Part shown: piece by piece, positions 26,250 through 40,205 of the stretch
Layout: each line of letters starts with the position of its first letter
Position numbering within the stretch: position 1 is the first letter of the stretch
DNA from: Pseudoxanthomonas suwonensis
GTDB taxonomy: Bacteria > Pseudomonadota > Gammaproteobacteria > Xanthomonadales > Xanthomonadaceae
NCBI GenBank assembly: GCA_003240695.1
Contig: QFNC01000009.1
Coordinates: 31,471 to 95,470 of the forward strand
Direction: 5' to 3'
DNA: 64,000 nucleotides
Translations under genes and position numbers: made by a program
Notes under the pieces: model-generated
Told to the model about the DNA's origin: nothing
The model's input: the letters and a program-made list of their open reading frames with translations, nothing else
The model's database searches: none

Positions 26250-27635
26250 TCAATCGAACAGCTTGCCTGGATTCATCACGCCGTTCGGATCGAAGACCCC
26301 CTTCACCTCACGCATCAACGCGATTTCCGCAGCGCTGCGGGTGCCCTGCAGGTAAGGCTTCTTCACCAAGCCGATGCCGTGCTCGGCGGAAATGCTGCCG
26401 CCGTGGCGCTGCAGGGCCTCGCTGAGCAGTTCGGTCACGCGTTCGCAGTCGCGCACGAAATCGGCCTGCGGCAGTTCCGCCGGTTTCAGCACGTTGATGT
26501 GCAGGTTGCCGTCGCCGATGTGGCCGAACCACACCACCTCGAACTGCGGGTATTCGCGCGCAAGCAGTGCCTGCGCGTCCTCCAGCAGCGCCGGCATCGC
26601 CGACAGGCGAACCGACACGTCGTTCTTGTATGGCAGGTGCGGCGCCAATGCTTCGGTGATGCCTTCGCGCAGCCGCCACAGCTGCGCCGCCTGCGCATCG
26701 CTCTGGCTGATCGCGCCATCCAGCACGAGACCCTGCTCCACGCAGGCTTCGAATGCCGACAACGCGGCGGCTTCGTCGCTATCCACAGCTGCGTCAAAAT
26801 CGGCAATCGCGTAGAAGGGATAGTCCTCGGCGAACGGCGCCTGCCCGCCATGCGCCAGCACGTGCCGCAGCGCGCGGTCGGTGAAGAATTCGAAGGCCTG
26901 CAGCGACAGCCGCGTGCGCAACTGCGCGAACACCTGCAAGACCGAGACGAAATCCGGCAAGGCCAGCAGCAGCGTGCGTGCCGGCGGTGCCGGATCGGTC
27001 AGGCGCACGCTAGCCGCGACCACGATACCCAGTGTCCCTTCGGAGGCGATGGCCAGATGGCGGAAGTCGTAGCCGCTGGAGTTCTTGATCAAACCCCGAT
27101 TCAATTCCAGCACCTCGCCGGAACCGGTGACCAGGGTCAGTCCGGCGATCCATTCGCGGGTGTTTCCGTAGCGCAGCACGCGGATGCCGCCGGCGTTGGT
27201 GGCGATGTTGCCGCCGAGGGTGCAGGACCCGCGCGAGGCGAAATCGACCGGGTACTGCAGGCCATGTTCGCGCGCCGCCTGCTGCAACGCTTCCAGGGTG
27301 ATGCCGGCCTGCACGGTCAGGGTGCGATCGACGGGATCAAACTCCAGCACGCGGTTCAGTTTCTGCAGACTCACGACCAGTTCGCCATTCGCAGCCACGG
27401 CACCGCCGGACAATCCGGTACGTCCACCGGACGGCACCAAGCCGACATGGTGTTCATTGGCCCAATGCACGATGCCGACCACCTCCTCCACGCTGGCCGG
27501 AAAGGCCACTGCCAGCGGTGCCGGCGCCCAGCGACGGGTCCAGTCGCGCCCGTGGAATTCGAGATCGCCCGGATCCGTCGACACCCGCAGCGATGGCAGG
27601 CGATGGCGCAGGTCGTCCAGGCGGGGATCGGTCAT
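26250..27635 (-). CDS. FAD-linked oxidase (GlcD/D-lactate dehydrogenase family); probable D-2-hydroxyglutarate dehydrogenase
   Basis: N-terminal FAD-binding PCMH domain (VVGIVHWANEHHVGLVPSGGRTGLSGGAV) and a C-terminal FAD-oxidase_C domain. Start MTDPRLD at 27635. The 917-aa track ORF is this gene fused to the antisense of serA. Divergent from serA. Confidence 0.85.
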   Translation of the reverse strand: MTDPRLDDLRHRLPSLRVSTDPGDLEFHGRDWTRRWAPAPLAVAFPASVEEVVGIVHWANEHHVGLVPSGGRTGLSGGAVAANGELVVSLQKLNRVLEFDPVDRTLTVQAGITLEALQQAAREHGLQYPVDFASRGSCTLGGNIATNAGGIRVLRYGNTREWIAGLTLVTGSGEVLELNRGLIKNSSGYDFRHLAIASEGTLGIVVAASVRLTDPAPPARTLLLALPDFVSVLQVFAQLRTRLSLQAFEFFTDRALRHVLAHGGQAPFAEDYPFYAIADFDAAVDSDEAAALSAFEACVEQGLVLDGAISQSDAQAAQLWRLREGITEALAPHLPYKNDVSVRLSAMPALLEDAQALLAREYPQFEVVWFGHIGDGNLHINVLKPAELPQADFVRDCERVTELLSEALQRHGGSISAEHGIGLVKKPYLQGTRSAAEIALMREVKGVFDPNGVMNPGKLFD

Positions 27636-27737
27636 CGGGATGTCGGCGTGCGGGGGCGAGCCACAGCCTACCCCACCCTGCCACCGCGCACACCGGCGAG
27701 AGGGCACAATGCATGTCCCCGCGTTCCGGAGCCGGCA

Positions 27738-28976
27738 TTGGCCCCCGTCACCTCGTTCCCCAAATCCGACATCCGCGTGCTGCTGCTGGAAGGCATCAGC
27801 ACCAGCGCGGTCGATGCCTTCCGCGCCACCGGTTACAGCCAGATCCGCACCTTCGACAAGTCGCCGCCGCCGGAGCAGCTGCGCCAGGAACTGGCCGAGG
27901 CGCATCTGCTCGGCATCCGCTCGCGCACGCAATTGACCGCCGAGCTGCTGGACGAGGCCCGCAAGCTGATCGCGGTGGGCTGCTTCTGCATCGGCACCAA
28001 CCAGGTCGATCTGGAAGCGGCACGGCTGCGCGGCGTGCCTGTGTTCAATGCACCGTATTCCAACACCCGCAGCGTGGCCGAACTGGTCATCGCCGAGGCC
28101 GTCCTGCTGATGCGCGGCATCCCGGCGAAATCGATGCAATGCCATCGCGGTGGCTGGTCGAAGTCGGCTGCCGGCAGCCACGAGGTGCGCGGCAAGACCA
28201 TCGGCATCGTCGGCTACGGCCACATCGGCACCCAGGTCGGCGTGCTGGCCGAAGCCTTGGGCATGCAGGTGTTGTTCCACGACGTGGAAACCAAGCTGTC
28301 GCTGGGCAACGCGCGATCCGCGGCCGACCTGGGCGAGCTGCTGGCCCGCAGCGACATCGTGACCCTGCACGTGCCGGAAACCCCGGCCACGCGGATGATG
28401 ATCGGCGCGGCGCAGTTCGCGGCGATGAAACCCGGGGTGCAGTTCATCAATGCCTCGCGCGGCACCGTGGTCGACATCGATGCGCTCACGGCCGCGCTGC
28501 AGTCTGGACACGTGGCGGGCGCGGCCGTCGACGTGTTCCCGGTGGAGCCGCAGGGCAATGCCGATGCGTTCGTCTCGCCGTTGTGCGGCATGGACAACGT
28601 GATCCTGACCCCGCACGTCGGCGGCAGCACGCTGGAAGCGCAGGACAACATCGGCCTGGAAGTGGCCACCAAGCTGATCCGCTATTCGGACAACGGCAGC
28701 ACCCTGTCGGCGGTCAATTTCCCCGAGGTCACCCTGCCCGAGCACCGCGGCAGCCACCGCTTCCTGCACATCCACCGCAACGTGCCCGGCGTGCTGTCGC
28801 GGATCAACGACATCTTTTCCAGCGCCGGCATCAACATCGACGGCCAGTACCTGCGCACCGACGCGCAGGTCGGTTACGTGGTGATCGATGCCGCTTCCGA
28901 CCACGCCCAGGCCACCCGGCTGCGGGAGCGGCTGGCGGCGATCGAGGGAACCCTGCGCACGCGGGTGCTGTACTGA
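27738..28976 (+). CDS. serA: D-3-phosphoglycerate dehydrogenase SerA (with C-terminal ACT domain), TTG start
   Basis: Aligns end-to-end with E. coli SerA (MAPVTSFPKSDIRVLLLEGIS vs MAKVSLEKDKIKFLLVEGVHQ) and has a C-terminal ACT domain. No in-frame ATG exists; the TTG at 27738 fits the alignment. Confidence 0.9.
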   Translation: MAPVTSFPKSDIRVLLLEGISTSAVDAFRATGYSQIRTFDKSPPPEQLRQELAEAHLLGIRSRTQLTAELLDEARKLIAVGCFCIGTNQVDLEAARLRGVPVFNAPYSNTRSVAELVIAEAVLLMRGIPAKSMQCHRGGWSKSAAGSHEVRGKTIGIVGYGHIGTQVGVLAEALGMQVLFHDVETKLSLGNARSAADLGELLARSDIVTLHVPETPATRMMIGAAQFAAMKPGVQFINASRGTVVDIDALTAALQSGHVAGAAVDVFPVEPQGNADAFVSPLCGMDNVILTPHVGGSTLEAQDNIGLEVATKLIRYSDNGSTLSAVNFPEVTLPEHRGSHRFLHIHRNVPGVLSRINDIFSSAGINIDGQYLRTDAQVGYVVIDAASDHAQATRLRERLAAIEGTLRTRVLY

Positions 28977-29008: not shown

Positions 29009-29044
29009 CCTTTCATGTAAGCGTTAGCATGCTTACATGAAAGG
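29009..29044. promoter_or_regulatory. Perfect 14-bp inverted repeat (CCTTTCATGTAAGC-N8-GCTTACATGAAAGG) enclosing the start codon of the first gene of the psp/flotillin cluster
   Basis: Read directly from the sequence. The right arm contains the ATG at 29037-29039. There is no flanking T-run, so it is not a canonical terminator. Confidence 0.6.
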
Positions 29045-29681
29045 CGATCACCCACTCAGCCCCTCCACCCTGCACCAGCGCGCCTACCGCGAACGCATGC
29101 GCGAGGCCGGCCTGGTGAAGAAGGATGTGTGGATCCTGCCCGAATACGCCGAGGAGCTGGCCGGCATCGAAAAGGCGATGCGAGAATCCGGGCATGCGCT
29201 GTCCGTCTCGCATGCCCACACCGGTCCGCAGACGGCCTGGACCCTGGCCGCCATCGCCGACGCCATTGCCGCCACCGGCGCGGCGCGCAGCGGCTCGATC
29301 ACGCCGGAATGGATCGAAGGGGCCGATCCCAGCCTGCGGCTGCAGATGCACGACCACGGCGATCTGTCGGTGTTCGTGGCGGTCGGCCACCAGCAGATCG
29401 TGGTCGAGGCCTACCTGTGGCCAGTCAGCCATGTGGCCGACCCGGCCGCGTTCGATGCGCACGTGCTGACCACCCACAAGCTGTTGCCGCTGTCCACGGT
29501 CGGCATCGAGAACATCGGTGGCGTGCCCGGCTACACCATGTTCGGTTCGCTGGATGCGCAGTCCAGCCTGGCCAGCGTGCTGTTCGAGGTCCAAACCCTG
29601 GCCGACAACGTGCTGGATGCCAGCGAAGCCTGGCTGGACTACCTGAAACCCGAACATCGCCTCGCGGAGACAGCGGCATGA
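29037..29681 (+). CDS. Hypothetical protein, possibly YjfI/DUF2170-like (PspA-associated), with ~55-aa charged N-terminal extension
   Basis: 214 aa. The C-terminal 150 aa loosely resemble the YjfI family that precedes yjfJ (a PspA homologue) in enterobacteria. The assignment is tentative and rests partly on context, since a PspA-like gene follows and is translationally coupled. Confidence 0.5.
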   Translation: MKGDHPLSPSTLHQRAYRERMREAGLVKKDVWILPEYAEELAGIEKAMRESGHALSVSHAHTGPQTAWTLAAIADAIAATGAARSGSITPEWIEGADPSLRLQMHDHGDLSVFVAVGHQQIVVEAYLWPVSHVADPAAFDAHVLTTHKLLPLSTVGIENIGGVPGYTMFGSLDAQSSLASVLFEVQTLADNVLDASEAWLDYLKPEHRLAETAA

Positions 29682-30364
29682 GCCCGTTCAAGGATCTGCT
29701 CAAGCGCATGCAGGAGAGCATGGACGAGCTGGGCGACACCCTGTCGGGCACCAGCACGGCCGAACGCCTGCTGGATGCCGACATCCGGCAGCTGGATGCC
29801 CAGCTGCACGGCTGGCGTGGCGAAGCCGCCAGTCTCAAGGCGCGGCGCATCACCAGCGGCGAACGGCTGCGCGAACACGGCGCGCGTATCCGCCAACTCG
29901 AAGCCGATGCGCTGGATGCCCTGCGTGCGCGTCGCAAGACGGCCGCACGCGAACTGGCCGAAGGGATCGCCGCTGCGCAGGCGGCGAAGGCCGGGGAAAA
30001 GACCCGTCTGGACGATCTGCAAGCACACGAGAAGGCACTGCTGCATGTGATCGAACAGGGCGAATCGAAGCTGCGCCGGCTCAAGCACCAACTGGACACG
30101 TTGCGGGCCAGCGAAAGCCTGCAGCGGGCACAGGCCGCGGTAGCCAAACGCCAGCCCGATGCCGCACCGCATCCCGAATCGGCGGTGGCATCGGCGCAGC
30201 GGGTGCGGCAGCGCCGCACCCCGGGTAGCACCTCCTCCCCACGCACGGTGGCCAGCGCGAAGCCTCCGGCAGAGGCGATACTGGACAGGCTGGCAGCGCG
30301 TTTGGGCGCCGCCGATTCCGCCGCATCGCCACCCGCTCGCAAGCTCGCCAGGAGACGTTCATGA
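29678..30364 (+). CDS. PspA/IM30/Vipp1-family (ESCRT-III-like) coiled-coil protein, YjfJ-like
   Basis: 228 aa. N-terminal ~150 aa predicted as continuous amphipathic coiled coil with PspA-like heptads (LLDADIRQLDAQL...LKARR...). C-terminal low-complexity tail. ATG overlaps the upstream stop (ATGA). RBS GGAGA. Confidence 0.55.
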   Translation: MSPFKDLLKRMQESMDELGDTLSGTSTAERLLDADIRQLDAQLHGWRGEAASLKARRITSGERLREHGARIRQLEADALDALRARRKTAARELAEGIAAAQAAKAGEKTRLDDLQAHEKALLHVIEQGESKLRRLKHQLDTLRASESLQRAQAAVAKRQPDAAPHPESAVASAQRVRQRRTPGSTSSPRTVASAKPPAEAILDRLAARLGAADSAASPPARKLARRRS

Positions 30365-30999
30365 CCGAATTCCTGACCACCGCCCTCACCTTCCCCACCC
30401 TGGTCTGGAGCGTGCTGTTCGCGTTCTGCCTGTTCTACTGGATGCTGGCGGCCACCGGCCTGGTGGACATCGACCTCGACGTGGCCGATGCCAGCCTGTC
30501 GTTCGACACCGACGTGGGCGAAACCGGTGCCTCGGCGGGCATGCTGGCACGATTCGGGCTGGGTGGCGTGCCACTGATGCTGGCGCTTGTCATCCTCGCG
30601 TTCGTCAGCTGGGTCATCACCTATTTCGTGCATCTGCTGGTGCTGGCGGCACTGCCGGACATGCTGCGCTGGATCCTGGGCGCAGTCACGGCCGTCGGTG
30701 CCGTGATCCCCGGGGTGCTGGTGGCATCGCTGGTGCTGCGGCCGTTGCGCAAGCTGATCGCGAAACTGCGTCCACCGGTGCAGCCCTCGCTGCTCGGTCG
30801 GGTCGGCACCGTCACCACGCCAACGGTCGACGACACCCATGGCATGGCCGCATTCGACGACGGCGGCGCGGGACTCATCCTGCAGGTCCGCGCCCGCCCA
30901 CCGGACACCTTCAACCGCGGCGACCGGGTCGTGCTGCTGGAATACCAGACCGGCGACAATAGCTACCGCGTGATGTCCGAAGACCGCTTCAACCGCTGA
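30361..30999 (+). CDS. YqiJ/NfeD-like inner-membrane protein (3 TM + C-terminal OB-fold)
   Basis: Three N-terminal TM helices, then a C-terminal beta-rich segment (GRVGTVTTPTVDDTHGMAAFDDGGAGLILQVRARPP...RVVLLEY) typical of NfeD/YqiJ OB domains. Precedes a flotillin, as in the yqiJ-yqiK pair. ATGA overlap with the upstream gene. Confidence 0.65.
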   Translation: MTEFLTTALTFPTLVWSVLFAFCLFYWMLAATGLVDIDLDVADASLSFDTDVGETGASAGMLARFGLGGVPLMLALVILAFVSWVITYFVHLLVLAALPDMLRWILGAVTAVGAVIPGVLVASLVLRPLRKLIAKLRPPVQPSLLGRVGTVTTPTVDDTHGMAAFDDGGAGLILQVRARPPDTFNRGDRVVLLEYQTGDNSYRVMSEDRFNR

Positions 31000-31031: not shown

Positions 31032-32969
31032 ATGTCGCTTTCCATGCTTATTCCGGGCCTGATCGGCCTCGCGGCCCTGGTGGTCGTGGTGTTCGGTCTG
31101 ATCGGCCTGTTCAAGGCGTTCTACGTCAAGGTCGAACAGGGCACGGCCCTGATCGTGAACGACCTGAGCGCCACGCCGAAGGTGCATTTCACCGGCGCGC
31201 TGATCATCCCGGTGCTGTACAAGGCCGAAGTGATGCGCATCAGCCTGATCACGCTGCAGGTGGACCGCCGCGGCAAGGAAGGGCTGATCTGCAAGGACAA
31301 CATGCGTGCCGACATCACCGTGGCCTACTACCTGCGGGTGAACGAAACCCCGGCCGACGTGCTGAAGGTGGCCAAGGCGGTGGGCGTGGACCGCGCCTCC
31401 GACAAGGACGCGGTGGACGAGCTCTTCAACGCCAAGTTCTCCGAAGCGCTGAAGACGGTGGGCAAGAAGTTCGAGTTCATCGAGCTGTTCGAGCAGCGCG
31501 AGCAGTTCCGCGACGAGATCGTCAAGGTGATCGGCAAGGATCTGAACGGTTACGTGCTGGAGGACGTGGCCATCGACTACCTGGAGCAGACCCCGAAGTC
31601 GCTGCTGGATCCGAGCAACATCCTCGACTCCGAGGGCATCCGAAAGATCACCCAGCTCACCGCAGCGCAGAACATCATTACCAACGAGCTGGAACAGAAC
31701 GAGCGCCTGGCCATCACCAAGAAGAACGTGGAAACCCGCGAGGCGACGCTGGCGCTGGAACGCCAGCAGGCCGAGGCCGAGGCGCGGCAGAAGCGCGAGA
31801 TCGAGAGCATCCAGGCACGCGAAGGCGCCGAAACCGAGAAGGTGCGCGAGGAACAGCGCTTGCTGGCAGAAAGCGCGCGACTGGAAACCGAGGAGAAGGT
31901 GCAGATCCGCGACCAGGAACGCCAGCGCCAGGTGGAAATCGCCGAGAAGAACCGCCTGCGTGCGGTCAGCATCGAGGCCGAACGGGTGAACCGCGCGGCG
32001 AAGATGGAAGCGGTGACCACCGACCGCGAGGTGAAGCTGCAGGAGGTCGAACGCGACAAGGCTGTGGAACAGGGCGTGATGGACGTGGCCAACATCACCC
32101 GCGAGCGCGTGGCGATCGACAAGACCGTGGCGATGGAAGAGGAGCGCATCAACGAGGTGCGCGAGGTGTCCGCCGCCGACCGCGCCAAGCAGGTGCGGGT
32201 GCTGGAAGCCGAAGCCGCCGCGCAGGAAACGCTGGTGAAGGAAATCAAGTCGGCCGAGGCCGGCGAGGCCGCCGCCAAGCACCGTGCGGTGGAAATGACC
32301 ACGCTGGCGCAGGCCGAGCTGGAAGCCGCCGGTCGCCAGGCCGATGCCAAGAAGGTGTTGGCCGAAGGCATCAAGGCCGAAAAGGCGGCCATCGGACTGG
32401 CCGAAGCGCGGGTGATCGAGGCCAAGGCCGACGCCAATTACAAGCAGGGCAATGCCGACGCGCGCGTTCTGGCCGAGCGCTTGGCCGCCGAGGCCGAGGG
32501 CGAAGCCAAGCTGGGCCAGGCACGCGCCAGCGCCGCCGAGGCGATGGGCAGCGCCGAAGCCTCCGCAGTGGGCAAGCGCATGGCCGCCGAAGCGGAGGGC
32601 CTGAACGCCAAGTTCGATGCCATGGACAAGATGAGCGACTCTGCACGCAGCCACGAGGAATTCCGCATGGCGCTGGACACCAGCCTGGAGCAGGCACTGG
32701 CCACCATCGAAGCGGGCAAGGTGGTGTCGAAGGAGAATGCCGAGGTCATCGCCACCGCGCTGCGCAATGCGCGCATCGATCTGGTGGGCGGCGAAGGCGG
32801 CATGTTCGACGCGCTCAGCCGCGCGATCGCGTTGGGCCGCTCGGTGGAAGGCTTTGCCGGCAAGAGCCCGATCGTGCAGGAGCTGCTGGACAAGTACCTG
32901 GGCGTGAAGCAGCCCTCCACCGATGCCACGCTGGCGCTGGGTCGGGATGCGGCGGATGCGAACGGCTGA
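31032..32969 (+). CDS. Flotillin-family SPFH/band-7 protein (YqiK/FloT-like)
   Basis: 645 aa. N-terminal TM, SPFH domain, then a long EA-rich coiled coil (EAEARQKREIESIQAREGAETEK...) typical of flotillins. Confidence 0.9.
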   Translation: MSLSMLIPGLIGLAALVVVVFGLIGLFKAFYVKVEQGTALIVNDLSATPKVHFTGALIIPVLYKAEVMRISLITLQVDRRGKEGLICKDNMRADITVAYYLRVNETPADVLKVAKAVGVDRASDKDAVDELFNAKFSEALKTVGKKFEFIELFEQREQFRDEIVKVIGKDLNGYVLEDVAIDYLEQTPKSLLDPSNILDSEGIRKITQLTAAQNIITNELEQNERLAITKKNVETREATLALERQQAEAEARQKREIESIQAREGAETEKVREEQRLLAESARLETEEKVQIRDQERQRQVEIAEKNRLRAVSIEAERVNRAAKMEAVTTDREVKLQEVERDKAVEQGVMDVANITRERVAIDKTVAMEEERINEVREVSAADRAKQVRVLEAEAAAQETLVKEIKSAEAGEAAAKHRAVEMTTLAQAELEAAGRQADAKKVLAEGIKAEKAAIGLAEARVIEAKADANYKQGNADARVLAERLAAEAEGEAKLGQARASAAEAMGSAEASAVGKRMAAEAEGLNAKFDAMDKMSDSARSHEEFRMALDTSLEQALATIEAGKVVSKENAEVIATALRNARIDLVGGEGGMFDALSRAIALGRSVEGFAGKSPIVQELLDKYLGVKQPSTDATLALGRDAADANG

Positions 32970-33050: not shown

Positions 33051-36000
33051 ATGACCGATGCCACCGACACCACTGCCGTCGCCGCAGCACCTGCATCAAA
33101 CACAGTCAATCAGGCCGTGGCCGAGGGCGGTGCCTACGAGGTGCTGCGCAAGCGGCTCACCGGTTTCGGCGGGCAGCTGCAGGCCATCGCGGATGATCTG
33201 AACGCGCGCCGCCTGCAGGAGTTCGGCGACAGCCGCATGGCGCTGGCCGGCCGCTTCCGCATCCGCACCGAGCACAACTGCGTGGGCCGCGACATCGTGC
33301 AGGTCGGCGATCTGCTGGTGTTCGGCTTCAACGTGTTCATGGGCCTGAAGAAGACCACCACGATTGCGGACGTGTTCGGCCTGTACCGCATGGTTGAGGT
33401 GAGCGACGGCTACGACGTGGAACCGGTGGACATCGCCGGCAGCTTCCTGTCCGATCCCGGTTTCGTGCGTGATTTCGACGAGCTGTACGCCTACTACAAG
33501 CATGCGCGCCTGCTGCAGCTGATCGTGCTGGACAGCAAGTTGATGGCCGCCTTCCAGATCGGCGAGCGTAGCACCGACGTGCGCGTGTTCCGCTGGTCGC
33601 TGGCCAGCAGCGGCGAGATCAGCTACATCGATGCCCGCGGCGAACGCGACATCGCCCTGCCCCCGCCGTTCGATTTCGAGTGGCAGCGCGCCACCCGCGA
33701 GATGGAAGTCAGCGGCCGCCATCCGCATCTCAACATCCTCGACACCCTGTTCGTGGAAACCCTGGGCGGCGATCTCACCGTCAAGGTCGAGAACAACACC
33801 GAGACCGGCAGGGGCATCTACAGCGAACCGGTGGAGGACAGCACCCAGTCCATCGACGATGCGCGCTTCGAATTCGCGCAGGTCGGTTCGCTGATCCTGT
33901 TGAAGATCCTGCCCTACCGCGAAAGCCAGTGGCGCGGGCTGGTGTACAACACCATCACCCGCAAGGTGCAGCGCATCGATGCCATCGTGCAGGCCTGCGT
34001 GCAGTTGCCGGAAGACCACGGCATCATCTTCCCGGGCGGCTACTACCTGCAGAACGGCGACCACAAGGCCTTCGACGCGGCCATGGCCGGCATGCAGTTC
34101 AAGCGCGCGATCCGCTCGCCCAACGGCGAGGACGTGCTGTACATCTTCTACGACCGCGACTCCGGGCTGGCCGCGCTGTTCGTGTACAACATGATCCAGC
34201 GCCAGCTGCAGAACCCGGTGTTCGCGCACGGCTATGCGCGGCTGGCCGACGGCCGCATGGTGCTGTTTCACGACGAAACCGGCGACCCCACCCGCGTGCA
34301 CCAGATGCAGGTGTGGATCACCCCGTTCGCCAGTGACGAATTCGCCGCGGCGCGGCCGCCCAGTGGCAGTTTCATGGGCAGGCTGGGCAATGCCGAACTG
34401 GTGCGTGGCATCTCCAACGTGTACGACCTGGTCCGCCAGATCGGCAACACCGACGTCTCCGCCAGGCGCTACGAACTGCTGACCCATCAGACCCGGCAGC
34501 TGTTCGACCAGCACCACTGGATCGACGACGACCATTGCAGCGGCCTGCGCAGCCTGCTGCACGAGGTGGCCGCCACCGGCGAATCGGTGCTGGACGAATT
34601 CGAGAAGGTGCAGAGCATCCGCGCGCAGTCGGACGCGGCCATGCAATCGGCACAGATCGAACAGCGCAAACTGCTCGGCCGTCTGCAGCCGGATTCGTGG
34701 AGCCGCATCCAGGAATACGTGGAAGCGCTGAATGCGCTCTCCCGCCAGCGTGGGCATCTGCTCACCATCCGCGATTACCGCTACATCGACACCGCTGCCA
34801 TCGATGCCATGGCCGAGGCGCTGCAGGAAGCGCACACGCGCATCGGCTCGGCCACCGGTGCCTTCCTGGCCGGCGACAAGGCCCTGCTGCCGTTCAACGA
34901 ACAGCTCCAGCAACTGGACCAGACCGCGCAGAAGGCGGAGACGGCCAGACAACTGAGCGAGCAACTGCAGGCGATGCAGACGATGTCCAGCGACTTGGAC
35001 ATGCTGTCGGAATTGATGGCCTCGCTGCCGGTGGACGATGCTACCCAGCGCACCCGCGTGGTGGATGCCATCTCCAATCTGTACGCACGCCTGAACCAGG
35101 CGCGCGCACGTGCCGACCAGCGCCGCAAGTCGCTCGGCTCCAGCGAGGCGGTGGCGCAGTTCGGTGCGCAGTTCGGCCTGTTTTCCCAGTCCATCACCAG
35201 TGCGCTGGGCATGGCGACCACGCCGGAGCGCGCCGACGAGCAGCTGGCACGGCTGCTGGTGCAGCTGGAGGAGCTGGAGGGACAGTTCGGCGAACACGAG
35301 CAGTTCCTCGTCGACATCCTCGGCAAGCGCGAGGAACTGCTGGAAACCTTCGAGGCGCACAAGCAGGCGCTGCTCGACGATCGTCAGCGCAAGGCGCAGT
35401 CGGTGCTGGATGCCGCCAACCGCATTCTCGACGGCCTGGGCAAGCGCACCGAACGTTTCGATCAGCCCGACGAGCTGAATGCCTTCTTCGCCGGCGACCC
35501 GCTGATCCTGAAACTGCGCGAGCTGGCCACGCGGCTGCGGGAACTGAAGGATCCGGTGAAAGCCGACGCGGTCGAAGCGCGCCTGAAAGGCGTGCGCGAC
35601 CAGTCCGTGCGCGTGCTGCGCGACCGCAGCGAGCTGTTCGAGGACGGTGGCAGCGTGATCCGCATGGGTCGGCATCGCTTCAGCGTGAACACGCAGCCGC
35701 TGGACCTCACCCTGCTGCCGCGCGAAGACCACCTGGCCGTGCATCTCACCGGCACCGATTACCTGCAGCCGCTGCGCGATGCCACGCTGGACGAATTGCG
35801 CGCCTTCTGGCAAGTGACGCTGGATTCGGAATCGCCCCAGGTGTACCGCGGCGAATACCTGGCCTGGCAGGTGTTGCGGGCCGCCGAACACGGCAACGAT
35901 GGCTGGAGCCGCGATGCGTTGCTGCATCTGCTGGCCGACCCCGAACAGCTGGCGGCGCGGGTGCGCGAGTTCGCCGCGCCGCGCTATCGGGAAGGTTACG

Positions 36001-38408
36001 AAAAAGGCATCCACGACCACGATGCCGTGCTGATCCTGCAGGCGGCCGTGCCGCTGCAGCAGGTCGCGGGCGCACTGGTGCACCCAGCGGCTGCGCGTGC
36101 GCTGGCATTGCTCGCGTGGTCGGCGCATCCGCGGCTGCAGGCGACCTGGCGCGAACGGATCCGCAACGCGCATGCCCTGCGCACGCTGTTCGGCAGCAGC
36201 GACGCCCTTCAGGCCGCGCAAGCCGACATCGCCCATGCCATCGCCGCATTCGGCGAACGCGAAGCGCTGGCCGACGGCGTGGCATCGGCGCAACAGGCCA
36301 CCGAGTACCTGTCCGACGCGCTGCAGCAGGCCGATGGCCGCTTCGCATTCACCCGACAAGCCGGGCAGTTGCTGGAGACACTGCGGCAGCAGCTGCAGCA
36401 GGCCGGACTGGGCGAAAGCATGTCGCTGGCGCTGCAGCCGGACCTGCCGCTGGTCGAACGCTGGCAGTGGCTGCTGCACTGGCTGACGGCATTGACCAGG
36501 CAACCCGCGCATGCGGCGCTGGCGCGTTTCGTGCCTGAAGCCGCCGCATTGGCATTGCTGGGCGACACCCTACCCCACGACCTGCGCGACATCACGCTGG
36601 ATGCCACGGTCACCGGCCTGCTGGGCGAGCATCCGCGCATCGCCGGCGGCAGCCTGCCGTTGGCCATCGACGACTTCCTGCCGCGCCTGCATGACCACGC
36701 ACATCGCTTCGTGCCGGCCTTCCACCGTTACCAGCAGCAACGCCAGCAGGTGATCGCCCAGCAACGCGATGCCCTGCGACTGGGCGAGTATCAGGCCAGG
36801 CCACTGACTTCGTTCGTGCGCAACCGGCTGATCAACGACGTTTACCTGCCCATCATCGGCGACAACCTGGCCAAGCAGATGGGCACGGTGGGCGAATCCA
36901 AGCGCAGCGACCTGATGGGCATGCTGATGCTCATTTCGCCGCCCGGTTACGGCAAGACCACGTTGATGGAATACGTGGCCAACCGGCTGGGTCTGGTCTT
37001 CATGAAAATCAACGGTCCGGCACTGGGCCACGACGTGCGCTCGCTGGACCCGGCCCAGGCACCGGACGCCACCTCGCGGCAGGAGCTGGAAAAACTGAAT
37101 CTGGCGCTGGAGATGGGCAACAACGTGATGCTGTACGTGGACGACATCCAGCACACCCATCCGGAATTCCTGCAGAAATTCATCTCGCTCACCGACGGCA
37201 CCCGCCGCATCGAAGGCGTGTGGCAGGGGCGCACGAAAACCTACGACCTGCGCGGGCGCAAGTTCGCGGTGGTGATGGCCGGCAACCCGTATACCGAGTC
37301 GGGCGAGGTGTTCAAGATTCCCGACATGCTGGCCAACCGCGCCGACATCTACAACCTCGGCGACGTGCTGGGCGGCATGGAGGACGCCTTCCTGCTCAGC
37401 TACATCGAGAACAGCCTGACCGCCAACCCGGTGCTGGCGCCTCTGGCCACCCGCGACCTGGCCGACCTGTACCTGCTGGTGGACAGGGCGCTGGGCAAGG
37501 AGGTCTCCACCAATGCGCTGAAACATGCCTACAGTGCCGCGGAAATCAACGAGATCACCGCCGTTCTGCAACGCATGATCGCGGTGCGCGAGGTGGTGTA
37601 CCGGGTCAACCAGCAGTACATCGCCAGTGCCGCGCAGGCTGACAAGTACCGCACCGAGCCGGCCTTCAAGCTGCAGGGCAGCTACCGCAACATGAACAAG
37701 CTGGCCGAGAAGATCTCGCCGGTGATGAACGATGCCGAGCTGCAACAGCTGATCAACGACCACTACCAGGGCGAATCGCAGCTGCTGACCACCGGCGCGG
37801 AGGAAAACCTCCTGAAACTGGGGGAATTGCGCGGCACCCTGACCGAAGCGCAGCGCGCCCGCTGGCAGCAGATCAAGGCCGACTTCCTGCGCAACAAGGC
37901 GATGGGAGCGGACGATGCGGACGTGGGGGGCCGCGTGATCGCACAGCTGGCCGACATCGCCGGTGGTCTGCAATCGCTGCGTGCCGAACCGAAAACCACC
38001 GTGACCGCGCCGGAGCCAGTTGCGCCGCCGCCGTGGCAGGATCTGCTGCAGGCGTTGCAGGCACTGCGCGTTCCGCAGGCGGCGCCCGCTCCCGCCGTGC
38101 CGCCGGCGCCGTCTCCCGAACCGCGCGAGTGGACCGTGACCGCCCCCGGCCTGACCGACGCCCTGCGCGAGGGCCTGTCGCCGTTGCTGGACACGCTGGC
38201 CAGCAGCGGCCAACAACAGCAGCAAGTGCAACTGGCTTTGGGGCGTCTTGCCGACGCCCTGCGCGACTCCGCGCAGCAGCAGCCGACCGTCATCGTGCAC
38301 GAAGACGCCGGCACGACGCCGCGCAAGCGCCGACCCAAGCCGGAAAAGCTGAAAAAACTGGACGAACAACTGGACATGATCGATTTCCACCGGAAACCGG
38401 CGGAATGA
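33051..38408 (+). CDS. Giant (1785 aa) protein: ~1290-aa N-terminal helical/coiled-coil region + MoxR/AAA_5-like AAA+ ATPase core + Pro-rich linker and basic tail
   Basis: Uninterrupted ORF with normal codon bias and RBS GGAG. Walker A SPPGYGKTTL (~aa 1299), Walker B VMLYVDDIQ, sensor-1-like VVMAGNPYTESG and ANRADIYNL (the MoxR NP...LDRF pattern). C-terminal APEPVAPPPW...PAPSPEP linker and RKRRPKPEKLKKL tail. No match to a characterised protein recalled. Confidence 0.8.
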   Translation: MTDATDTTAVAAAPASNTVNQAVAEGGAYEVLRKRLTGFGGQLQAIADDLNARRLQEFGDSRMALAGRFRIRTEHNCVGRDIVQVGDLLVFGFNVFMGLKKTTTIADVFGLYRMVEVSDGYDVEPVDIAGSFLSDPGFVRDFDELYAYYKHARLLQLIVLDSKLMAAFQIGERSTDVRVFRWSLASSGEISYIDARGERDIALPPPFDFEWQRATREMEVSGRHPHLNILDTLFVETLGGDLTVKVENNTETGRGIYSEPVEDSTQSIDDARFEFAQVGSLILLKILPYRESQWRGLVYNTITRKVQRIDAIVQACVQLPEDHGIIFPGGYYLQNGDHKAFDAAMAGMQFKRAIRSPNGEDVLYIFYDRDSGLAALFVYNMIQRQLQNPVFAHGYARLADGRMVLFHDETGDPTRVHQMQVWITPFASDEFAAARPPSGSFMGRLGNAELVRGISNVYDLVRQIGNTDVSARRYELLTHQTRQLFDQHHWIDDDHCSGLRSLLHEVAATGESVLDEFEKVQSIRAQSDAAMQSAQIEQRKLLGRLQPDSWSRIQEYVEALNALSRQRGHLLTIRDYRYIDTAAIDAMAEALQEAHTRIGSATGAFLAGDKALLPFNEQLQQLDQTAQKAETARQLSEQLQAMQTMSSDLDMLSELMASLPVDDATQRTRVVDAISNLYARLNQARARADQRRKSLGSSEAVAQFGAQFGLFSQSITSALGMATTPERADEQLARLLVQLEELEGQFGEHEQFLVDILGKREELLETFEAHKQALLDDRQRKAQSVLDAANRILDGLGKRTERFDQPDELNAFFAGDPLILKLRELATRLRELKDPVKADAVEARLKGVRDQSVRVLRDRSELFEDGGSVIRMGRHRFSVNTQPLDLTLLPREDHLAVHLTGTDYLQPLRDATLDELRAFWQVTLDSESPQVYRGEYLAWQVLRAAEHGNDGWSRDALLHLLADPEQLAARVREFAAPRYREGYEKGIHDHDAVLILQAAVPLQQVAGALVHPAAARALALLAWSAHPRLQATWRERIRNAHALRTLFGSSDALQAAQADIAHAIAAFGEREALADGVASAQQATEYLSDALQQADGRFAFTRQAGQLLETLRQQLQQAGLGESMSLALQPDLPLVERWQWLLHWLTALTRQPAHAALARFVPEAAALALLGDTLPHDLRDITLDATVTGLLGEHPRIAGGSLPLAIDDFLPRLHDHAHRFVPAFHRYQQQRQQVIAQQRDALRLGEYQARPLTSFVRNRLINDVYLPIIGDNLAKQMGTVGESKRSDLMGMLMLISPPGYGKTTLMEYVANRLGLVFMKINGPALGHDVRSLDPAQAPDATSRQELEKLNLALEMGNNVMLYVDDIQHTHPEFLQKFISLTDGTRRIEGVWQGRTKTYDLRGRKFAVVMAGNPYTESGEVFKIPDMLANRADIYNLGDVLGGMEDAFLLSYIENSLTANPVLAPLATRDLADLYLLVDRALGKEVSTNALKHAYSAAEINEITAVLQRMIAVREVVYRVNQQYIASAAQADKYRTEPAFKLQGSYRNMNKLAEKISPVMNDAELQQLINDHYQGESQLLTTGAEENLLKLGELRGTLTEAQRARWQQIKADFLRNKAMGADDADVGGRVIAQLADIAGGLQSLRAEPKTTVTAPEPVAPPPWQDLLQALQALRVPQAAPAPAVPPAPSPEPREWTVTAPGLTDALREGLSPLLDTLASSGQQQQQVQLALGRLADALRDSAQQQPTVIVHEDAGTTPRKRRPKPEKLKKLDEQLDMIDFHRKPAE

Positions 38409-38427
38409 CGCGTGGCCATCGCCAGCC

Positions 38428-39120
38428 ATGCCGGACAGCGCGCGCATGACCGATGCACGGACCGATGCGGATGCCGGAACACTCGCCGACCAGGCGGTGC
38501 TGGCAGCCACCACCGCCCAGGCCGATGTTCTACAACTGCACGCGCCCACCGAGCGCATGCTGGCACTGCTGCGCGACATCCGCACGGTGCTGCTGTCCAC
38601 CGACCCGGCCGCATTGCGGCGCAGCGTGGGTCTGTTCGGACGGCTGCTGGGCAACGACATCGACCTTGCCGCCGAAGCCGGCCAGCTGCGCGAGCAGGCT
38701 GGCGTGCTGGTGCAACAGGCCCGCGGCATCCTGCAGCAGTCGCAGCAGTATCTGGATTCCATGCATCGGCACATCGTCAGCATGGAGCAGGCGCAGACCC
38801 GACTGCAGCACGCGCATGCCGCACTGGCGCAGGCGGTGCCATCCGATGGCCACGCGCCGCCCTCGCGACGCGCCGATCACCTGCTGCAGTTGCTGGCCAC
38901 CACCGACCTCAGCGCCCGGCAGTTGCGGATCTCGGCCGACCATCACGCGCGACTGCACGCGCGATTCGGCATGATGGCCGATACGCTGCTGCCCTTGCTG
39001 ACGCAAACGGCCATCATCGAGAAGGCGCAGCACGGCGCGCCGGTCCATCGCCAGACGCTGGGCGAGCTGGATGCGCTGGAAAGCCTCATCATCACCGAAT
39101 CCACCCAGGAGCCGCCATGA
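38428..39120 (+). CDS. Hypothetical 230-aa soluble helical protein, translationally coupled to telA
   Basis: Sensible amino-acid composition. The alternative frame (track 38412-40205 N-part) is Arg/Ala garbage. Stop overlaps the telA ATG (ATGA). Confidence 0.5.
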   Translation: MPDSARMTDARTDADAGTLADQAVLAATTAQADVLQLHAPTERMLALLRDIRTVLLSTDPAALRRSVGLFGRLLGNDIDLAAEAGQLREQAGVLVQQARGILQQSQQYLDSMHRHIVSMEQAQTRLQHAHAALAQAVPSDGHAPPSRRADHLLQLLATTDLSARQLRISADHHARLHARFGMMADTLLPLLTQTAIIEKAQHGAPVHRQTLGELDALESLIITESTQEPP

Positions 39121-40205
39121 CCACACCGAGCGACGGACCACTGATCACCGCACAGGCCCTGCCCGATGCCACCGCGCTGGTGCAGCTGGGCCTGACCAAT
39201 GCCGACATGCCGGCCATCGTGCAGGCCGGCAAGGGACTGCAGGATCTCTCGCCCACCGCACTGCAGGGCTATGGCCGCGATGCCGCCGCCAGGACCAACA
39301 GTTTCTCGACCCAGCTGCTGGACAAGGTGCGCAACAGCGATCTGGATGCCTCCGGCGACAAGCTGGGCGAGGTGGTGAAGATCGCCCGCAGCCTGAATCT
39401 GCAGAGCTTCGCCGAGCGTTCGAAGGTGCCGCTGCTGGGCCCGTTGATCGACCGGATGAAGGCCACCCGCGACGACCTGATCCAGAAGTACAGCAGCACC
39501 AACAGCCAGATCGACCAGCTGATGCGCGAGGTCGGCCAGACCCAAGCCACCCAGGCGCAGCGAGTGAAGGAATACGACCAGATGCACGGCATCGTGCGCG
39601 AGGAACACCGCGATCTGGGCATCCACGTGGCTGCCGGGCGCATGCGCCTGGCCGAACTGCAACAGGAAATCGCCACGCTGGACGGCCGCGACGATCCGGC
39701 ATCGCGGCTGCGCCGGTCCGAACTGGACACCGCGATCCGCCTGCTGGACAAGCGCGTGTCGGACCTGCACGTGCTGCAGCACGCCACCGAACAGACCCTG
39801 CCGATGATCCGCCTGATCCAGGCCAACGCGATCCAGCTGATCGAAAAATTCAGTGCCGTGCGCGACGTGACCCTGCCGATGTGGCGGCACCAGTTCGCCA
39901 TCCAACTGTCGCTGGCGGACCAGAAGAATGCGGTGCAACTGGCCAATGCCATCGACGATGCCAGCAACGCGCTGATGCGCCGCAATGCCGAACTGATGCA
40001 CCAGACGTCGGTGGAGACGGCCAAGGCCAACCAGCGCTCGGTGCTCGACATCGACACGCTGCGCACGGTCAACGACACATTGATCCGCACGGTCGAGGAA
40101 GTGCGGACCATCCACCGCGATGGCATGCAGCAGCGGCAGCAGACTGAACGCGACATCCAGCAGATGCGCGAACAGCTGCAGCAGCAGCTCGATACCCGCA
40201 CCTGA
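39117..40205 (+). CDS. telA: TelA/KlaA-family toxic-anion-resistance-like protein
   Basis: 362 aa. TelA-like motifs (DQLMREVGQTQATQAQRVKEYDQM, TLPMIRLIQANAIQLIEKFSAV...WRHQFAIQLSLADQ). ATG at 39117 within the longer track frame. Confidence 0.75.
   Translation: MTTPSDGPLITAQALPDATALVQLGLTNADMPAIVQAGKGLQDLSPTALQGYGRDAAARTNSFSTQLLDKVRNSDLDASGDKLGEVVKIARSLNLQSFAERSKVPLLGPLIDRMKATRDDLIQKYSSTNSQIDQLMREVGQTQATQAQRVKEYDQMHGIVREEHRDLGIHVAAGRMRLAELQQEIATLDGRDDPASRLRRSELDTAIRLLDKRVSDLHVLQHATEQTLPMIRLIQANAIQLIEKFSAVRDVTLPMWRHQFAIQLSLADQKNAVQLANAIDDASNALMRRNAELMHQTSVETAKANQRSVLDIDTLRTVNDTLIRTVEEVRTIHRDGMQQRQQTERDIQQMREQLQQQLDTRT

What the first reader, a model, noticed from the sequence alone, without database searches (positions are those of the whole stretch)
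38428..40205. TelA-like protein translationally coupled to an uncharacterised 230-aa partner at the distal end of the cluster
TelA/KlaA proteins are poorly understood membrane-associated stress proteins usually found with ter genes or alone. Here the TelA homologue is the last gene of the PspA-flotillin-ATPase array. Its ATG overlaps the stop of a 230-aa helical protein with no recognisable family. The ORF track shows the TelA frame as a 597-aa ORF; the N-terminal ~235 codons are Arg/Ala-rich wrong-frame read-through, so the true gene pair is 38428-39120 plus 39117-40205.
Basis: partly seen in the sequence, partly recalled or inferred. Interest (0 to 1): 0.55.

Follow-up and report, generated by a model that had tools for sequence, protein, structure and literature searches.

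The report
KlaA-like/TelA pair on flotillin–ATPase operon
The "uncharacterised" partner is a fast-evolving relative of the plasmid protein KlaA (a shortened TelA paralogue), so the pair is a chromosomal klaA–telA module without its third gene, fixed to the end of a PspA–flotillin–AAA+ ATPase membrane-stress operon in a whole order of bacteria, which gives a testable clue to what TelA proteins do.

Summary
There are two genes, not one 597-aa product: a TelA (39117-40205, PF05816 E=4e-69) whose ATG overlaps the stop of an upstream helical protein in an ATGA. GC3 by frame, an independent gene call and over 60 genomes agree. The partner more likely starts at 38446 (224 aa) than at 38428.

"No recognisable family" is true only of direct Pfam/NCBIfam scans. 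Profile-profile comparison places the partner with plasmid KlaA (98.8%, E=8e-17, near full length). KlaA in turn matches TelA residues 45-259. The pair therefore resembles klaA–klaB(telA) of the RK2 kilA operon, but the membrane protein KlaC/TelB is absent.

All 65 related loci, all Lysobacterales, show YqiJ–flotillin–DUF3686 AAA+ ATPase–partner–TelA wherever the contig reaches. In seven other lineages the operon ends at the ATPase. Vibrionaceae attach a distant TelA behind a PLD-like gene, which points to a separate recruitment.

The partner evolves about three times faster than TelA but is under purifying selection (dN/dS 0.24 vs 0.07).

Inferred, not shown: a soluble KlaA-like/TelA hetero-oligomer working with the flotillin/ATPase machinery in envelope stress. 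This is a new variant of a known kind, of moderate interest.

The parts
29037..29681 (+). YjfI-like protein (DUF2170; the CesT/Tir-like chaperone class of Ravi et al. 2024), first gene of the array
   Evidence: PF09938, E=8.5e-43. Its stop overlaps the PspA start by 4 nt. Present upstream in about 20 of the related loci.
29678..30364 (+). PspA/IM30 family protein (YjfJ type)
   Evidence: PF04012, E=3.5e-18. Called as 228 aa in the syntenic contig L072. 4-nt overlaps on both sides.
30361..30999 (+). YqiJ/NfeD-like membrane protein with 3 hydrophobic segments
   Evidence: Only a weak YqiJ_N hit, E=0.14. Three TM-like segments. Conserved next to flotillin in all loci. The Hymenobacter counterpart is annotated DUF1449.
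31032..32969 (+). Flotillin/SPFH-like protein with an N-terminal membrane anchor and a long Glu/Ala-rich coiled coil
   Evidence: No Pfam hit. It is 52% and 48% identical to proteins annotated 'SPFH domain-containing' and 'flotillin family'. One TM-like segment at residues 1-35.
33051..38408 (+). 1785-aa DUF3686 - DUF7902 - AAA+ ATPase (annotated 'DNA repair ATPase' in databases)
   Evidence: PF12458, E=7e-195; PF25472, E=6e-28; AAA_5/AAA at residues 1292-1419. 66-74% identical in 60+ loci.
38446..39120 (+). KlaA-like partner, a shortened and divergent TelA paralogue (224 aa from Met7, or 230 aa if translation starts at 38428). Soluble and all-helical.
   Evidence: Coding GC3 pattern. Family of 57 representatives. 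hhalign to KlaA: 98.8%, E=7.8e-17. AF2 model pLDDT 87.4 with six helices. No TM segment. dN/dS 0.24. Start inferred.
38629..38658 (+). Most conserved motif of the partner family, G-[WFL]-[FLW]-G-R-L-[LI]-G-[RN]-D (GLFGRLLGND, residues 68-77 counted from 38428), spanning the end of helix 3 (60-73) and the start of helix 4 (76-89)
   Evidence: G68, G71, R72, L73 and G75 are at least 90% conserved and D77 is invariant across 52 sequences. This was the pattern used. Helix boundaries.
39107..39120 (+). Coupling junction: AGGAG Shine-Dalgarno (39107-39111) inside the partner's 3' end, then ATGA (39117-39120) shared by TelA's start and the partner's stop
   Evidence: Sequence. The ATGA overlap is conserved in 23 of 64 junctions, counting the window.
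39117..40205 (+). TelA (KlaB-type toxic anion resistance family protein), 362 aa, soluble, last gene of the operon
   Evidence: PF05816, E=4e-69. 41-47% identical to plasmid KlaB/TelA proteins but only 28% to the Vibrio operon's TelA. No TM segment.

Best explanation
Positions 38446(38428)-39120 and 39117-40205 encode a pair of paralogous, soluble, all-helical proteins of the TelA superfamily. The first is a short, fast-evolving KlaA-like protein that corresponds to roughly the N-terminal three quarters of TelA. The second is a full-length TelA of the KlaB type. The pair is a chromosomal counterpart of klaA-klaB(telA) from the plasmid kilA operon. It lacks the membrane protein KlaC/TelB. In Lysobacterales it has been fixed as the last two genes of the (YjfI-PspA)-YqiJ-flotillin-DUF3686 AAA+ ATPase operon. 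SHOWN: the gene structure, the homology chain partner -> KlaA -> TelA, the conserved order, purifying selection, and the absence of KlaC. INFERRED: (1) the seven genes are one transcript, and the two proteins are produced in a fixed ratio through the stop/start overlap and the internal Shine-Dalgarno sequence; (2) they form a hetero-oligomer, as is common for coupled paralogues, and as fits the reported need for KlaA, KlaB and KlaC together in the RK2 phenotypes; (3) with no KlaC, the complex is brought to the membrane by the anchored flotillin/YqiJ scaffold and may be assembled or remodelled by the AAA+ ATPase, acting beside PspA in the response to envelope or membrane damage, with tellurite or antimicrobial tolerance as a read-out rather than the primary function. 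Confidence is about 0.9 for identity and architecture and about 0.4 for the mechanism.
For: Gene structure. TelA: PF05816, E=4e-69. Partner = KlaA-like: BLASTP to the IncHI2 KlaA-like protein, E=7e-6 over residues 17-193. hhalign of the strict partner family against KlaA: 98.8%, E=7.8e-17, 189 columns. KlaA against TelA: 95.2%, E=2.5e-8, KlaA 34-231 aligned to TelA 45-259. The weak direct partner/TelA match falls in the register this chain predicts. Eight of 52 family members hit Pfam TelA. P0049 is in both families' hit lists. The top BFVD structural matches are annotated TelA or tellurite-resistance proteins. KlaA/KlaB homology is published (PMC5696584). Plasmid relatives show KlaA-TelA-KlaC, with an ATGA overlap in the IncHI2 plasmid. 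Conservation: YqiJ-flotillin-ATPase-partner-TelA is colinear in all 65 Lysobacterales loci where the contig allows it. The partner/TelA ATGA overlap occurs at 23 of 64 junctions and an ATPase/partner ATGA in about 28 loci. Selection: dN/dS is 0.24 for the partner and 0.07 for TelA in 106 close pairs. Functional link to the operon: Vibrio and Photobacterium attach a distant TelA clade (28-30% identity) to the same operon. Solubility: the partner, TelA, KlaA and KlaB have no TM-like segments; the KlaC-like proteins have 2-4, YqiJ has 3 and flotillin has 1. Envelope-stress role of TelA: Listeria lmo1967 disruption gives 4-fold higher nisin and 2-fold higher tellurite susceptibility, and the gene is induced together with the PSP response (PMC12791056).
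Confidence: 0.6

Rival explanations
1. The pair is a self-contained kilA-like module (for example plasmid fertility inhibition, phage exclusion, or tellurite/toxic-anion tolerance) that happens to sit at the operon's 3' end and does not work with flotillin, PspA or the ATPase.
For: The closest TelA relatives outside the order are on conjugative plasmids in klaA-telA-klaC operons. A KlaA-like...TelA arrangement also occurs in a setting of small genes that looks like a mobile element. The operon lacks the pair in seven other lineages. The 40-66 nt gaps in Stenotrophomonas-type loci could hold promoters. FiwB fertility inhibition is assigned to KlaABC (PMC5696584).
Against: The position is fixed across all 65 loci from many genera, with no case of the pair elsewhere or of the operon without it inside this order. 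ATGA overlaps occur on both sides of the partner in many loci. An unrelated TelA clade was recruited to the same operon in Vibrionaceae. KlaC, reported as required for the plasmid phenotypes, is absent. No PADLOC defence model matches.
Confidence: 0.22
2. The partner mainly serves the AAA+ ATPase as an adaptor, substrate or regulator and does not partner TelA; its adjacency to TelA is secondary.
For: In about 28 loci the ATPase stop overlaps the partner's start in an ATGA. The partner's fast evolution (about 3 times TelA's rate) would suit an adaptor or regulatory subunit. In Vibrionaceae another protein (PLD-like) sits between the ATPase and TelA.
Against: The partner is homologous to KlaA, which pairs with TelA/KlaB on plasmids that have no such ATPase. 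The partner family was never found next to the ATPase without TelA.
Confidence: 0.1
3. The partner is a decaying, non-functional duplicate of TelA kept only because TelA's ribosome-binding site lies inside it.
For: There is no direct family hit. Median identity across loci is 28% against 67% for TelA. dN/dS approaches or exceeds 1 in some saturated or noisy comparisons.
Against: The reading frame is intact and 207-258 aa long in 62 of the 63 related loci with a readable junction; the exception is a frame switch in a MAG. dN/dS is 0.24 in close pairs and below 1 in 93% of them. There is a strongly conserved motif and a coding GC3 pattern. The AF2 model is confident, pLDDT 87.
Confidence: 0.04
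4. One long 597-aa protein is made from GTG 38412 through to 40205.
For: The open reading frame exists.
Against: Its first ~235 codons have a non-coding GC pattern, 0.83/0.77/0.46. Relatives have the partner in a different frame, often separated from TelA by 40-66 nt. An independent gene caller calls two genes. Long spurious ORFs are common in this 67% GC window.
Confidence: 0.01

Closest known systems
kilA (klaA-klaB/telA-klaC/telB) operon of IncP-alpha plasmid RK2/RP4 and its relatives on MOBH/MPF_F plasmids (IncHI2, Pseudomonas plasmids)
   Same: A short TelA paralogue (KlaA, 257-269 aa) lies immediately upstream of a full-length TelA (about 370 aa) on the same strand, with a 4-nt overlap in the IncHI2 example. 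Both proteins are soluble. The window's TelA is 41-47% identical to these KlaB proteins, and the partner's family matches KlaA at 98.8% by hhalign.
   Different: There is no KlaC/TelB membrane protein. The pair is chromosomal and embedded in a seven-gene PspA-flotillin-AAA+ operon rather than in a plasmid control region. The partner has diverged beyond direct Pfam detection and is shorter (224-230 aa). The plasmid phenotypes (Kil, tellurite resistance, FiwB fertility inhibition) are untested here.
CesT/Tir(YjfI)-PspA + YqiJ/YuaF + band-7/flotillin + 'novel AAA+ ATPase' operon described by Ravi et al. 2024 (PMC11237479)
   Same: The first five genes of the window's array match that description gene for gene. 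Variants in Pseudomonas pQBR103, Deinococcus, Streptomyces, Hymenobacter and others were seen here.
   Different: That paper does not contain the word TelA. The Lysobacterales version adds KlaA-like + TelA at the 3' end, and Vibrionaceae add PLD + TelA. The paper mentions the PLD but not the TelA.
xpaC-yaaN(telA) pair of Bacillota (Listeria lmo1966-lmo1967)
   Same: A TelA-family gene is preceded by a smaller partner gene in a putative two-gene operon. The pair is linked to tolerance of envelope-acting antimicrobials and is co-induced with the PSP response (PMC12791056).
   Different: [quoted passage not shown] It was not compared here. There is no flotillin/AAA+ context.
Vibrionaceae YqiJ-flotillin-DUF3686 ATPase-PLD-TelA operon (Vibrio campbellii, Photobacterium sp. 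GJ3)
   Same: The same ATPase operon ends in a TelA.
   Different: The gene between the ATPase and TelA is an HKD/PLD-like protein, not a KlaA-like one. Its TelA is only 28-30% identical to the window's, so it belongs to another TelA clade and was probably recruited separately.

Membership tests
TelA / toxic anion resistance family (PF05816), for 39117-40205 | Score above Pfam's gathering cut-off over the whole domain | tested here: met
   233.7 bits against a cut-off of 30, E=4e-69, residues 46-359 on profile positions 13-331 of 332.
TelA / toxic anion resistance family (PF05816), for 39117-40205 | Contributes to tolerance of tellurite or envelope-acting compounds | not testable with these tools
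   Needs MICs of deletion mutants. Only literature on Listeria TelA is available.
KlaA family (short TelA paralogue of kilA operons), for the partner | Sequence homology to KlaA over most of its length | tested here: met
   hhalign A3 vs A4: 98.8%, E=7.8e-17, 189 columns. BLASTP E=7e-6 over residues 17-193. P0049 is shared by both hit lists.
KlaA family (short TelA paralogue of kilA operons), for the partner | Direct match to the Pfam TelA model, as KlaA proteins have | tested here: not met
   The window protein has no hit even at E<=10. Plasmid KlaA-like proteins reach E=1e-6 to 5e-10, and 8 of 52 members of the partner's wider family reach it. The link is therefore transitive, through profiles.
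KlaA family (short TelA paralogue of kilA operons), for the partner | Encoded immediately upstream of telA/klaB on the same strand, about 210-270 aa, soluble | tested here: met
   Same layout on the plasmids.
kilA operon as a three-gene system (KlaA-KlaB-KlaC) | Presence of klaC/telB, the integral membrane component, downstream of telA | tested here: not met
   tblastn with two KlaC-like proteins finds nothing significant in the window or in any locus. A convergent NUDIX gene follows TelA. Plasmids with KlaA+KlaB but no KlaC are reported (PMC5696584).
kilA operon as a three-gene system (KlaA-KlaB-KlaC) | Host-lethal (Kil), tellurite-resistance or fertility-inhibition phenotype | not testable with these tools
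   Experimental only.
YjfI-PspA-YqiJ-flotillin-AAA+ operon (Ravi et al. 2024) | YjfI/DUF2170 and PspA dyad | tested here: met
   PF09938, E=8.5e-43, and PF04012, E=3.5e-18, with a 4-nt overlap.
YjfI-PspA-YqiJ-flotillin-AAA+ operon (Ravi et al. 2024) | [quoted passage not shown] | tested here: inconclusive
   Pfam thresholds are not reached (YqiJ_N E=0.14; no Band_7 hit). However, the TM pattern fits, and the proteins are 48-52% identical to annotated SPFH/flotillin proteins in the same operon position.
YjfI-PspA-YqiJ-flotillin-AAA+ operon (Ravi et al. 2024) | [quoted passage not shown] | tested here: met
   DUF3686 E=7e-195, DUF7902, and an AAA domain at 1292-1419. The beta-propeller fold itself was not modelled.

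The most novel reading that the evidence does not exclude
TelA-superfamily proteins are not anion-resistance factors as such. They are soluble client or effector subunits of a flotillin-scaffolded, AAA+-driven membrane-maintenance machine that works alongside PspA. The KlaA-like/TelA heteromer replaces the KlaC membrane anchor with flotillin/YqiJ. Two TelA clades were captured separately by the same operon (Lysobacterales with a KlaA-like partner, Vibrionaceae with a PLD-like one), which marks a real functional dependency. The partner's threefold faster evolution reflects a specificity or regulatory role.
Probability: 0.3. Interest if true: 0.65.

Novelty: new variant of a known kind. Interest (0 to 1): 0.4.

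Why it matters
By my own knowledge of the field (the original papers are not held), TelA/KlaA/KlaB proteins have been known for over thirty years from tellurite resistance, host killing and plasmid fertility inhibition, and they still have no mechanism. No related solved structure was found here. This analysis shows that a whole bacterial order, including the tractable opportunistic pathogen Stenotrophomonas maltophilia, keeps a KlaA-like/TelA pair attached to a PspA–flotillin–AAA+ ATPase operon, and that Vibrionaceae attach a different TelA to the same operon. That gives a concrete, testable hypothesis: TelA proteins act in membrane maintenance together with flotillin and an AAA+ ATPase. It also gives a natural KlaC-free system in which to test it. 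On the practical side, a family of about 57 sequence clusters now annotated as hypothetical can be labelled KlaA-like TelA paralogues.

Tried and rejected
1. Direct BLASTP of the partner against the adjacent TelA found nothing (E=39). The homology shows only through profiles and the KlaA intermediate.
2. A PDB sequence search with the partner family profile and with TelA found only coiled-coil noise and no solved relative.
4. The apparent 616-aa partner-TelA fusion in a Dyella MAG (L033) would have been Rosetta-stone evidence. It is rejected: the partner's C-terminus switches frame, and the normal frame stops just before TelA's ATG, so an indel or assembly error is likely.
5. The KlaC/TelB search found it absent.
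6. The PADLOC defence models gave only noise-level hits.
7. Promoter and terminator scans found nothing above shuffled expectation.
8. dN/dS across all pairs was rejected as saturated and biased by extreme GC3. It was redone on 106 close pairs.
9. The search for related loci with the 52-sequence alignment failed because no stretch was conserved enough. It was redone with 13 sequences.
10. The Anantharaman et al. 2012 Ter/TelA paper, Goncharoff et al. 1991 and Collins et al. 2010 are not held. I therefore cannot exclude that the first already notes a TelA-flotillin/AAA+ association.
11. A structure of TelA or of the complex was not attempted. The tool reports no interface metrics, and paired sequences taken from the loci are not accepted.
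Full report
OBSERVATION. The window is about 67% GC. At the reported coordinates there is a 230-aa ATG ORF (38428-39120), a 597-aa GTG ORF (38412-40205), and inside the latter a 362-aa reading from ATG 39117. The partner's stop and the downstream start share ATGA at 39117-39120, and an AGGAG lies 5 nt upstream of that ATG. The 362-aa protein is a full-length TelA: PF05816, E=4e-69, 233.7 bits against a cut-off of 30.

GC content by codon position settles the frame question. Over 38428-39116 the 230-aa frame reads 0.77/0.46/0.83, the same pattern as TelA (0.68/0.40/0.87) and the ATPase (0.70/0.42/0.86). The 597-aa frame reads 0.83/0.77/0.46. A gene caller run by others on a 98%-identical contig (L072) produced the same two genes with the same 4-nt overlap.

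One refinement concerns the start. The N-termini of the family align at Met7. A 61%-identical relative (L082) lacks the upstream ATG but keeps the Met7 context. So 38446 (224 aa) is the better-supported start.

WHAT THE PARTNER IS. Direct scans find nothing: Pfam at E<=10, NCBIfam at E<=1, PADLOC, and the PDB by sequence. The word-indexed protein search found only three close relatives. An exhaustive HMMER search with their alignment found 57 cluster representatives at E<=1e-3 and 22 at E<=1e-10, nearly all 200-270 aa and matched end to end. The family shares the motif G-[WFL]-[FLW]-G-R-L-[LI]-G-[RN]-D (residues 68-77) and a second conserved region around R148.

The lead came from plasmids. 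The window's TelA is 47% and 41% identical to TelA proteins on a Pseudomonas plasmid and an IncHI2 plasmid. In both, TelA is preceded by a 257-269-aa protein annotated 'protein KlaA' or 'toxic anion resistance protein' and followed by a third gene. In the IncHI2 plasmid the first two genes overlap by 4 nt. This is the layout of the RK2 kilA operon, klaA-klaB(telA)-klaC(telB); those gene names are from my own knowledge and from PMC5696584.

Five tests link the partner to KlaA and TelA:
- BLASTP of the partner against the IncHI2 KlaA-like protein gives E=7e-6 over residues 17-193.
- A profile of 13 strict partner-family members against a profile of 32 KlaA proteins, with no shared sequences, gives 98.8% probability, E=7.8e-17, over 189 aligned columns.
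- The KlaA profile against a TelA alignment gives 95.2%, E=2.5e-8, with KlaA 34-231 on TelA 45-259. The weak direct partner-TelA match (E=0.006) falls in exactly the register this chain predicts.
- Eight of 52 family members hit Pfam TelA by themselves. One protein, P0049, is found by both the partner profile and the KlaA query.
- The AlphaFold2 model is confident (pLDDT 87.4, pTM 0.76) and consists of six helices. Its best matches among predicted viral structures are annotated TelA or tellurite-resistance proteins, though with weak statistics: E=1.9e-3 and TM 0.34-0.57.

That KlaA and KlaB are homologous is already published (PMC5696584). The partner is therefore a divergent KlaA-type protein, a shortened TelA paralogue lacking roughly the last 100 residues. 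It is not a protein without a family.

CONTEXT AND CONSERVATION. Upstream on the same strand, with overlaps or gaps of at most 81 nt, lie:
- YjfI/DUF2170;
- PspA;
- a 3-TM YqiJ-like protein;
- a flotillin-like protein;
- a 1785-aa DUF3686-DUF7902-AAA+ ATPase.

These five genes are the operon described by Ravi et al. 2024 (PMC11237479), whose text never mentions TelA.

A pattern scan of one genome per species returned 65 loci, all Lysobacterales: Pseudoxanthomonas, Stenotrophomonas including S. maltophilia, Thermomonas, Luteimonas, Lysobacter, Dyella, Solimonas and others. Every locus whose contig extends far enough has YqiJ-flotillin-ATPase-partner-TelA in that order and orientation. YjfI-PspA is detected upstream in about 20 of them. 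The partner-stop/TelA-start ATGA is present at 23 of 64 junctions, and an ATGA between the ATPase and the partner in about 28 loci. Stenotrophomonas-type loci have gaps of 40-66 nt instead.

Outside this order, the operon ends at the ATPase with no KlaA or TelA. This holds in Pseudomonas pQBR103, Deinococcus, Streptomyces, Hymenobacter, Proteus, Halomonas and Nonomuraea. Vibrionaceae are the exception. In Vibrio campbellii and Photobacterium the ATPase is followed by a 234-aa HKD/PLD-like protein and then a TelA. That TelA is only 28-30% identical to the Lysobacterales TelA, which is closer to plasmid KlaB at 41-47%. This argues that two different TelA clades were attached to the same operon separately.

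No KlaC/TelB homologue is present in the window or in any locus. The partner, TelA, KlaA and KlaB have no TM-like segments, whereas the plasmid KlaC-like proteins have two to four.

EVOLUTIONARY RATE. The partner is less conserved than TelA in all 1,891 genome pairs. Median identity is 28% against 67%, and the Poisson-distance ratio is about 3. In 106 close pairs, dN/dS is 0.24 for the partner and 0.07 for TelA, and it is below 1 in 93% of pairs. The partner is a real gene under selection, but much less constrained than its neighbours.

HOW IT MOST LIKELY WORKS. Shown: two soluble paralogous helical proteins are encoded in a tightly packed, conserved pair at the end of a membrane-stress operon.

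Inferred:
- The pair is co-transcribed with the operon and made in a set ratio through the overlap and the internal Shine-Dalgarno sequence.
- The two proteins assemble into a hetero-oligomer.
- Lacking KlaC, they depend on the membrane-anchored flotillin/YqiJ scaffold and possibly on the AAA+ ATPase.
- They act beside PspA in envelope or membrane damage.

The last inference fits the published Listeria data: TelA disruption raises nisin and tellurite susceptibility, and the gene is induced with the PSP response (PMC12791056). My confidence is about 0.9 for identity and architecture and about 0.4 for the mechanism.

The main rival (0.22) is that the pair is an autonomous kilA-like module that merely sits at the operon end. 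Its plasmid relatives and its absence from most versions of the operon support that rival. Its complete fixation across an order, the overlaps on both sides, the missing KlaC and the second capture in Vibrionaceae speak against it.

COMPARISON AND NOVELTY. The gene pair is a member of a known kind (klaA-telA). It fails one defining feature of the three-gene kilA system, because it has no klaC. The five upstream genes are a known operon. What appears new in the literature I could read is the combination, its fixation throughout Lysobacterales, the parallel PLD-TelA variant in Vibrionaceae, and the recognition that a family of hypothetical proteins is KlaA-like. I could not read Anantharaman et al. 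2012, which surveyed TelA neighbourhoods, so prior description cannot be excluded.

VERDICT. This is a new variant of a known kind. Interest is 0.4: not very surprising to a specialist, but it gives the long-unexplained TelA family a concrete context that can be tested genetically.

Noticed in passing
window 38405-38449: The ATG overlapping the ATPase stop (GAATGA) opens a 14-codon mini-ORF. Its TGA overlaps the partner's Met7 ATG (GCATGACC), making a possible stop/start relay from the ATPase to the partner. It is kept in frame in relatives at 98%, 88% and 61% identity; the 61% relative has 10 codons after a 12-nt deletion. Both ATGAs are explained by the coding sequence, and the frame match has about a 1-in-3 chance per lineage, so this is not significant.
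   Followed up: partly
L079 14846-16624 (Vibrio campbellii) and L081 14764-16644 (Photobacterium sp. GJ3): In Vibrionaceae the same YqiJ-flotillin-DUF3686 ATPase operon is followed by a 234-aa HKD/PLD-like protein and then a distant TelA (28% identical to the window's). This TelA attachment is not mentioned in the PSP survey paper.
   Followed up: partly
L033 9887-11737 (Dyella sp. MAG): The partner and TelA read as one 616-aa ORF. The partner's C-terminal part has switched frame, and the normal frame ends just before TelA's ATG. This is probably an indel or assembly error, not a natural fusion.
   Followed up: yes
window 30361-30999 and 31032-32969: The YqiJ-like and flotillin-like proteins miss Pfam thresholds (YqiJ_N E=0.14; no Band_7/flotillin hit). 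The flotillin-like protein is 48-52% identical to proteins annotated SPFH/flotillin in the same operon position elsewhere, and the YqiJ-like protein is 22-37% identical to its counterparts there. The profiles seem to under-detect this clade.
   Followed up: partly
window 33051-38408; L073-L081: The DUF3686 protein is annotated 'DNA repair ATPase' in databases. In all 9 lineages examined outside Lysobacterales, and in all 65 Lysobacterales loci where the contig reaches, it sits directly after flotillin, almost always preceded by a YqiJ-like membrane protein. No DNA-repair genes were seen nearby. The name looks unsupported by context.
   Followed up: partly
L073 998-14202 (Pseudomonas fluorescens pQBR103): One array joins yjfI-pspA-rhomboid-DUF2491-DUF350-DUF1190-glutathionylspermidine synthase with YqiJ-SPFH-DUF3686 ATPase. 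Both operon classes of Ravi et al. therefore lie head to tail on a megaplasmid.
   Followed up: no
L068 4943-8640 (ENA metagenome scaffold): P0049, a KlaA-like protein that bridges the partner and KlaA families, is separated from its TelA by two small genes (94 and 114 aa) and followed by a 366-aa gene. The region is full of short genes and looks like a mobile element. This is a third layout of the KlaA/TelA pairing.
   Followed up: no
whole window; L072, L082-L084: The window's species is absent from the one-genome-per-species collection: the best partner match there is 40% identical, although the search pattern fits the window. Relatives at 98%, 88% and 61% identity exist only in Logan read-archive assemblies, so this is an unrepresented Lysobacterales lineage.
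   Followed up: no
window 33096-36512 (-), 36570-38783 (-), 34535-36538 (+) and others: Very long ORFs (up to 1138 aa) lie antisense to, or out of frame with, the ATPase gene, and an 865-aa ORF over-extends the SerA-like gene at 26379-28976. These are typical high-GC artefacts of the same kind as the 597-aa ORF.
   Followed up: no
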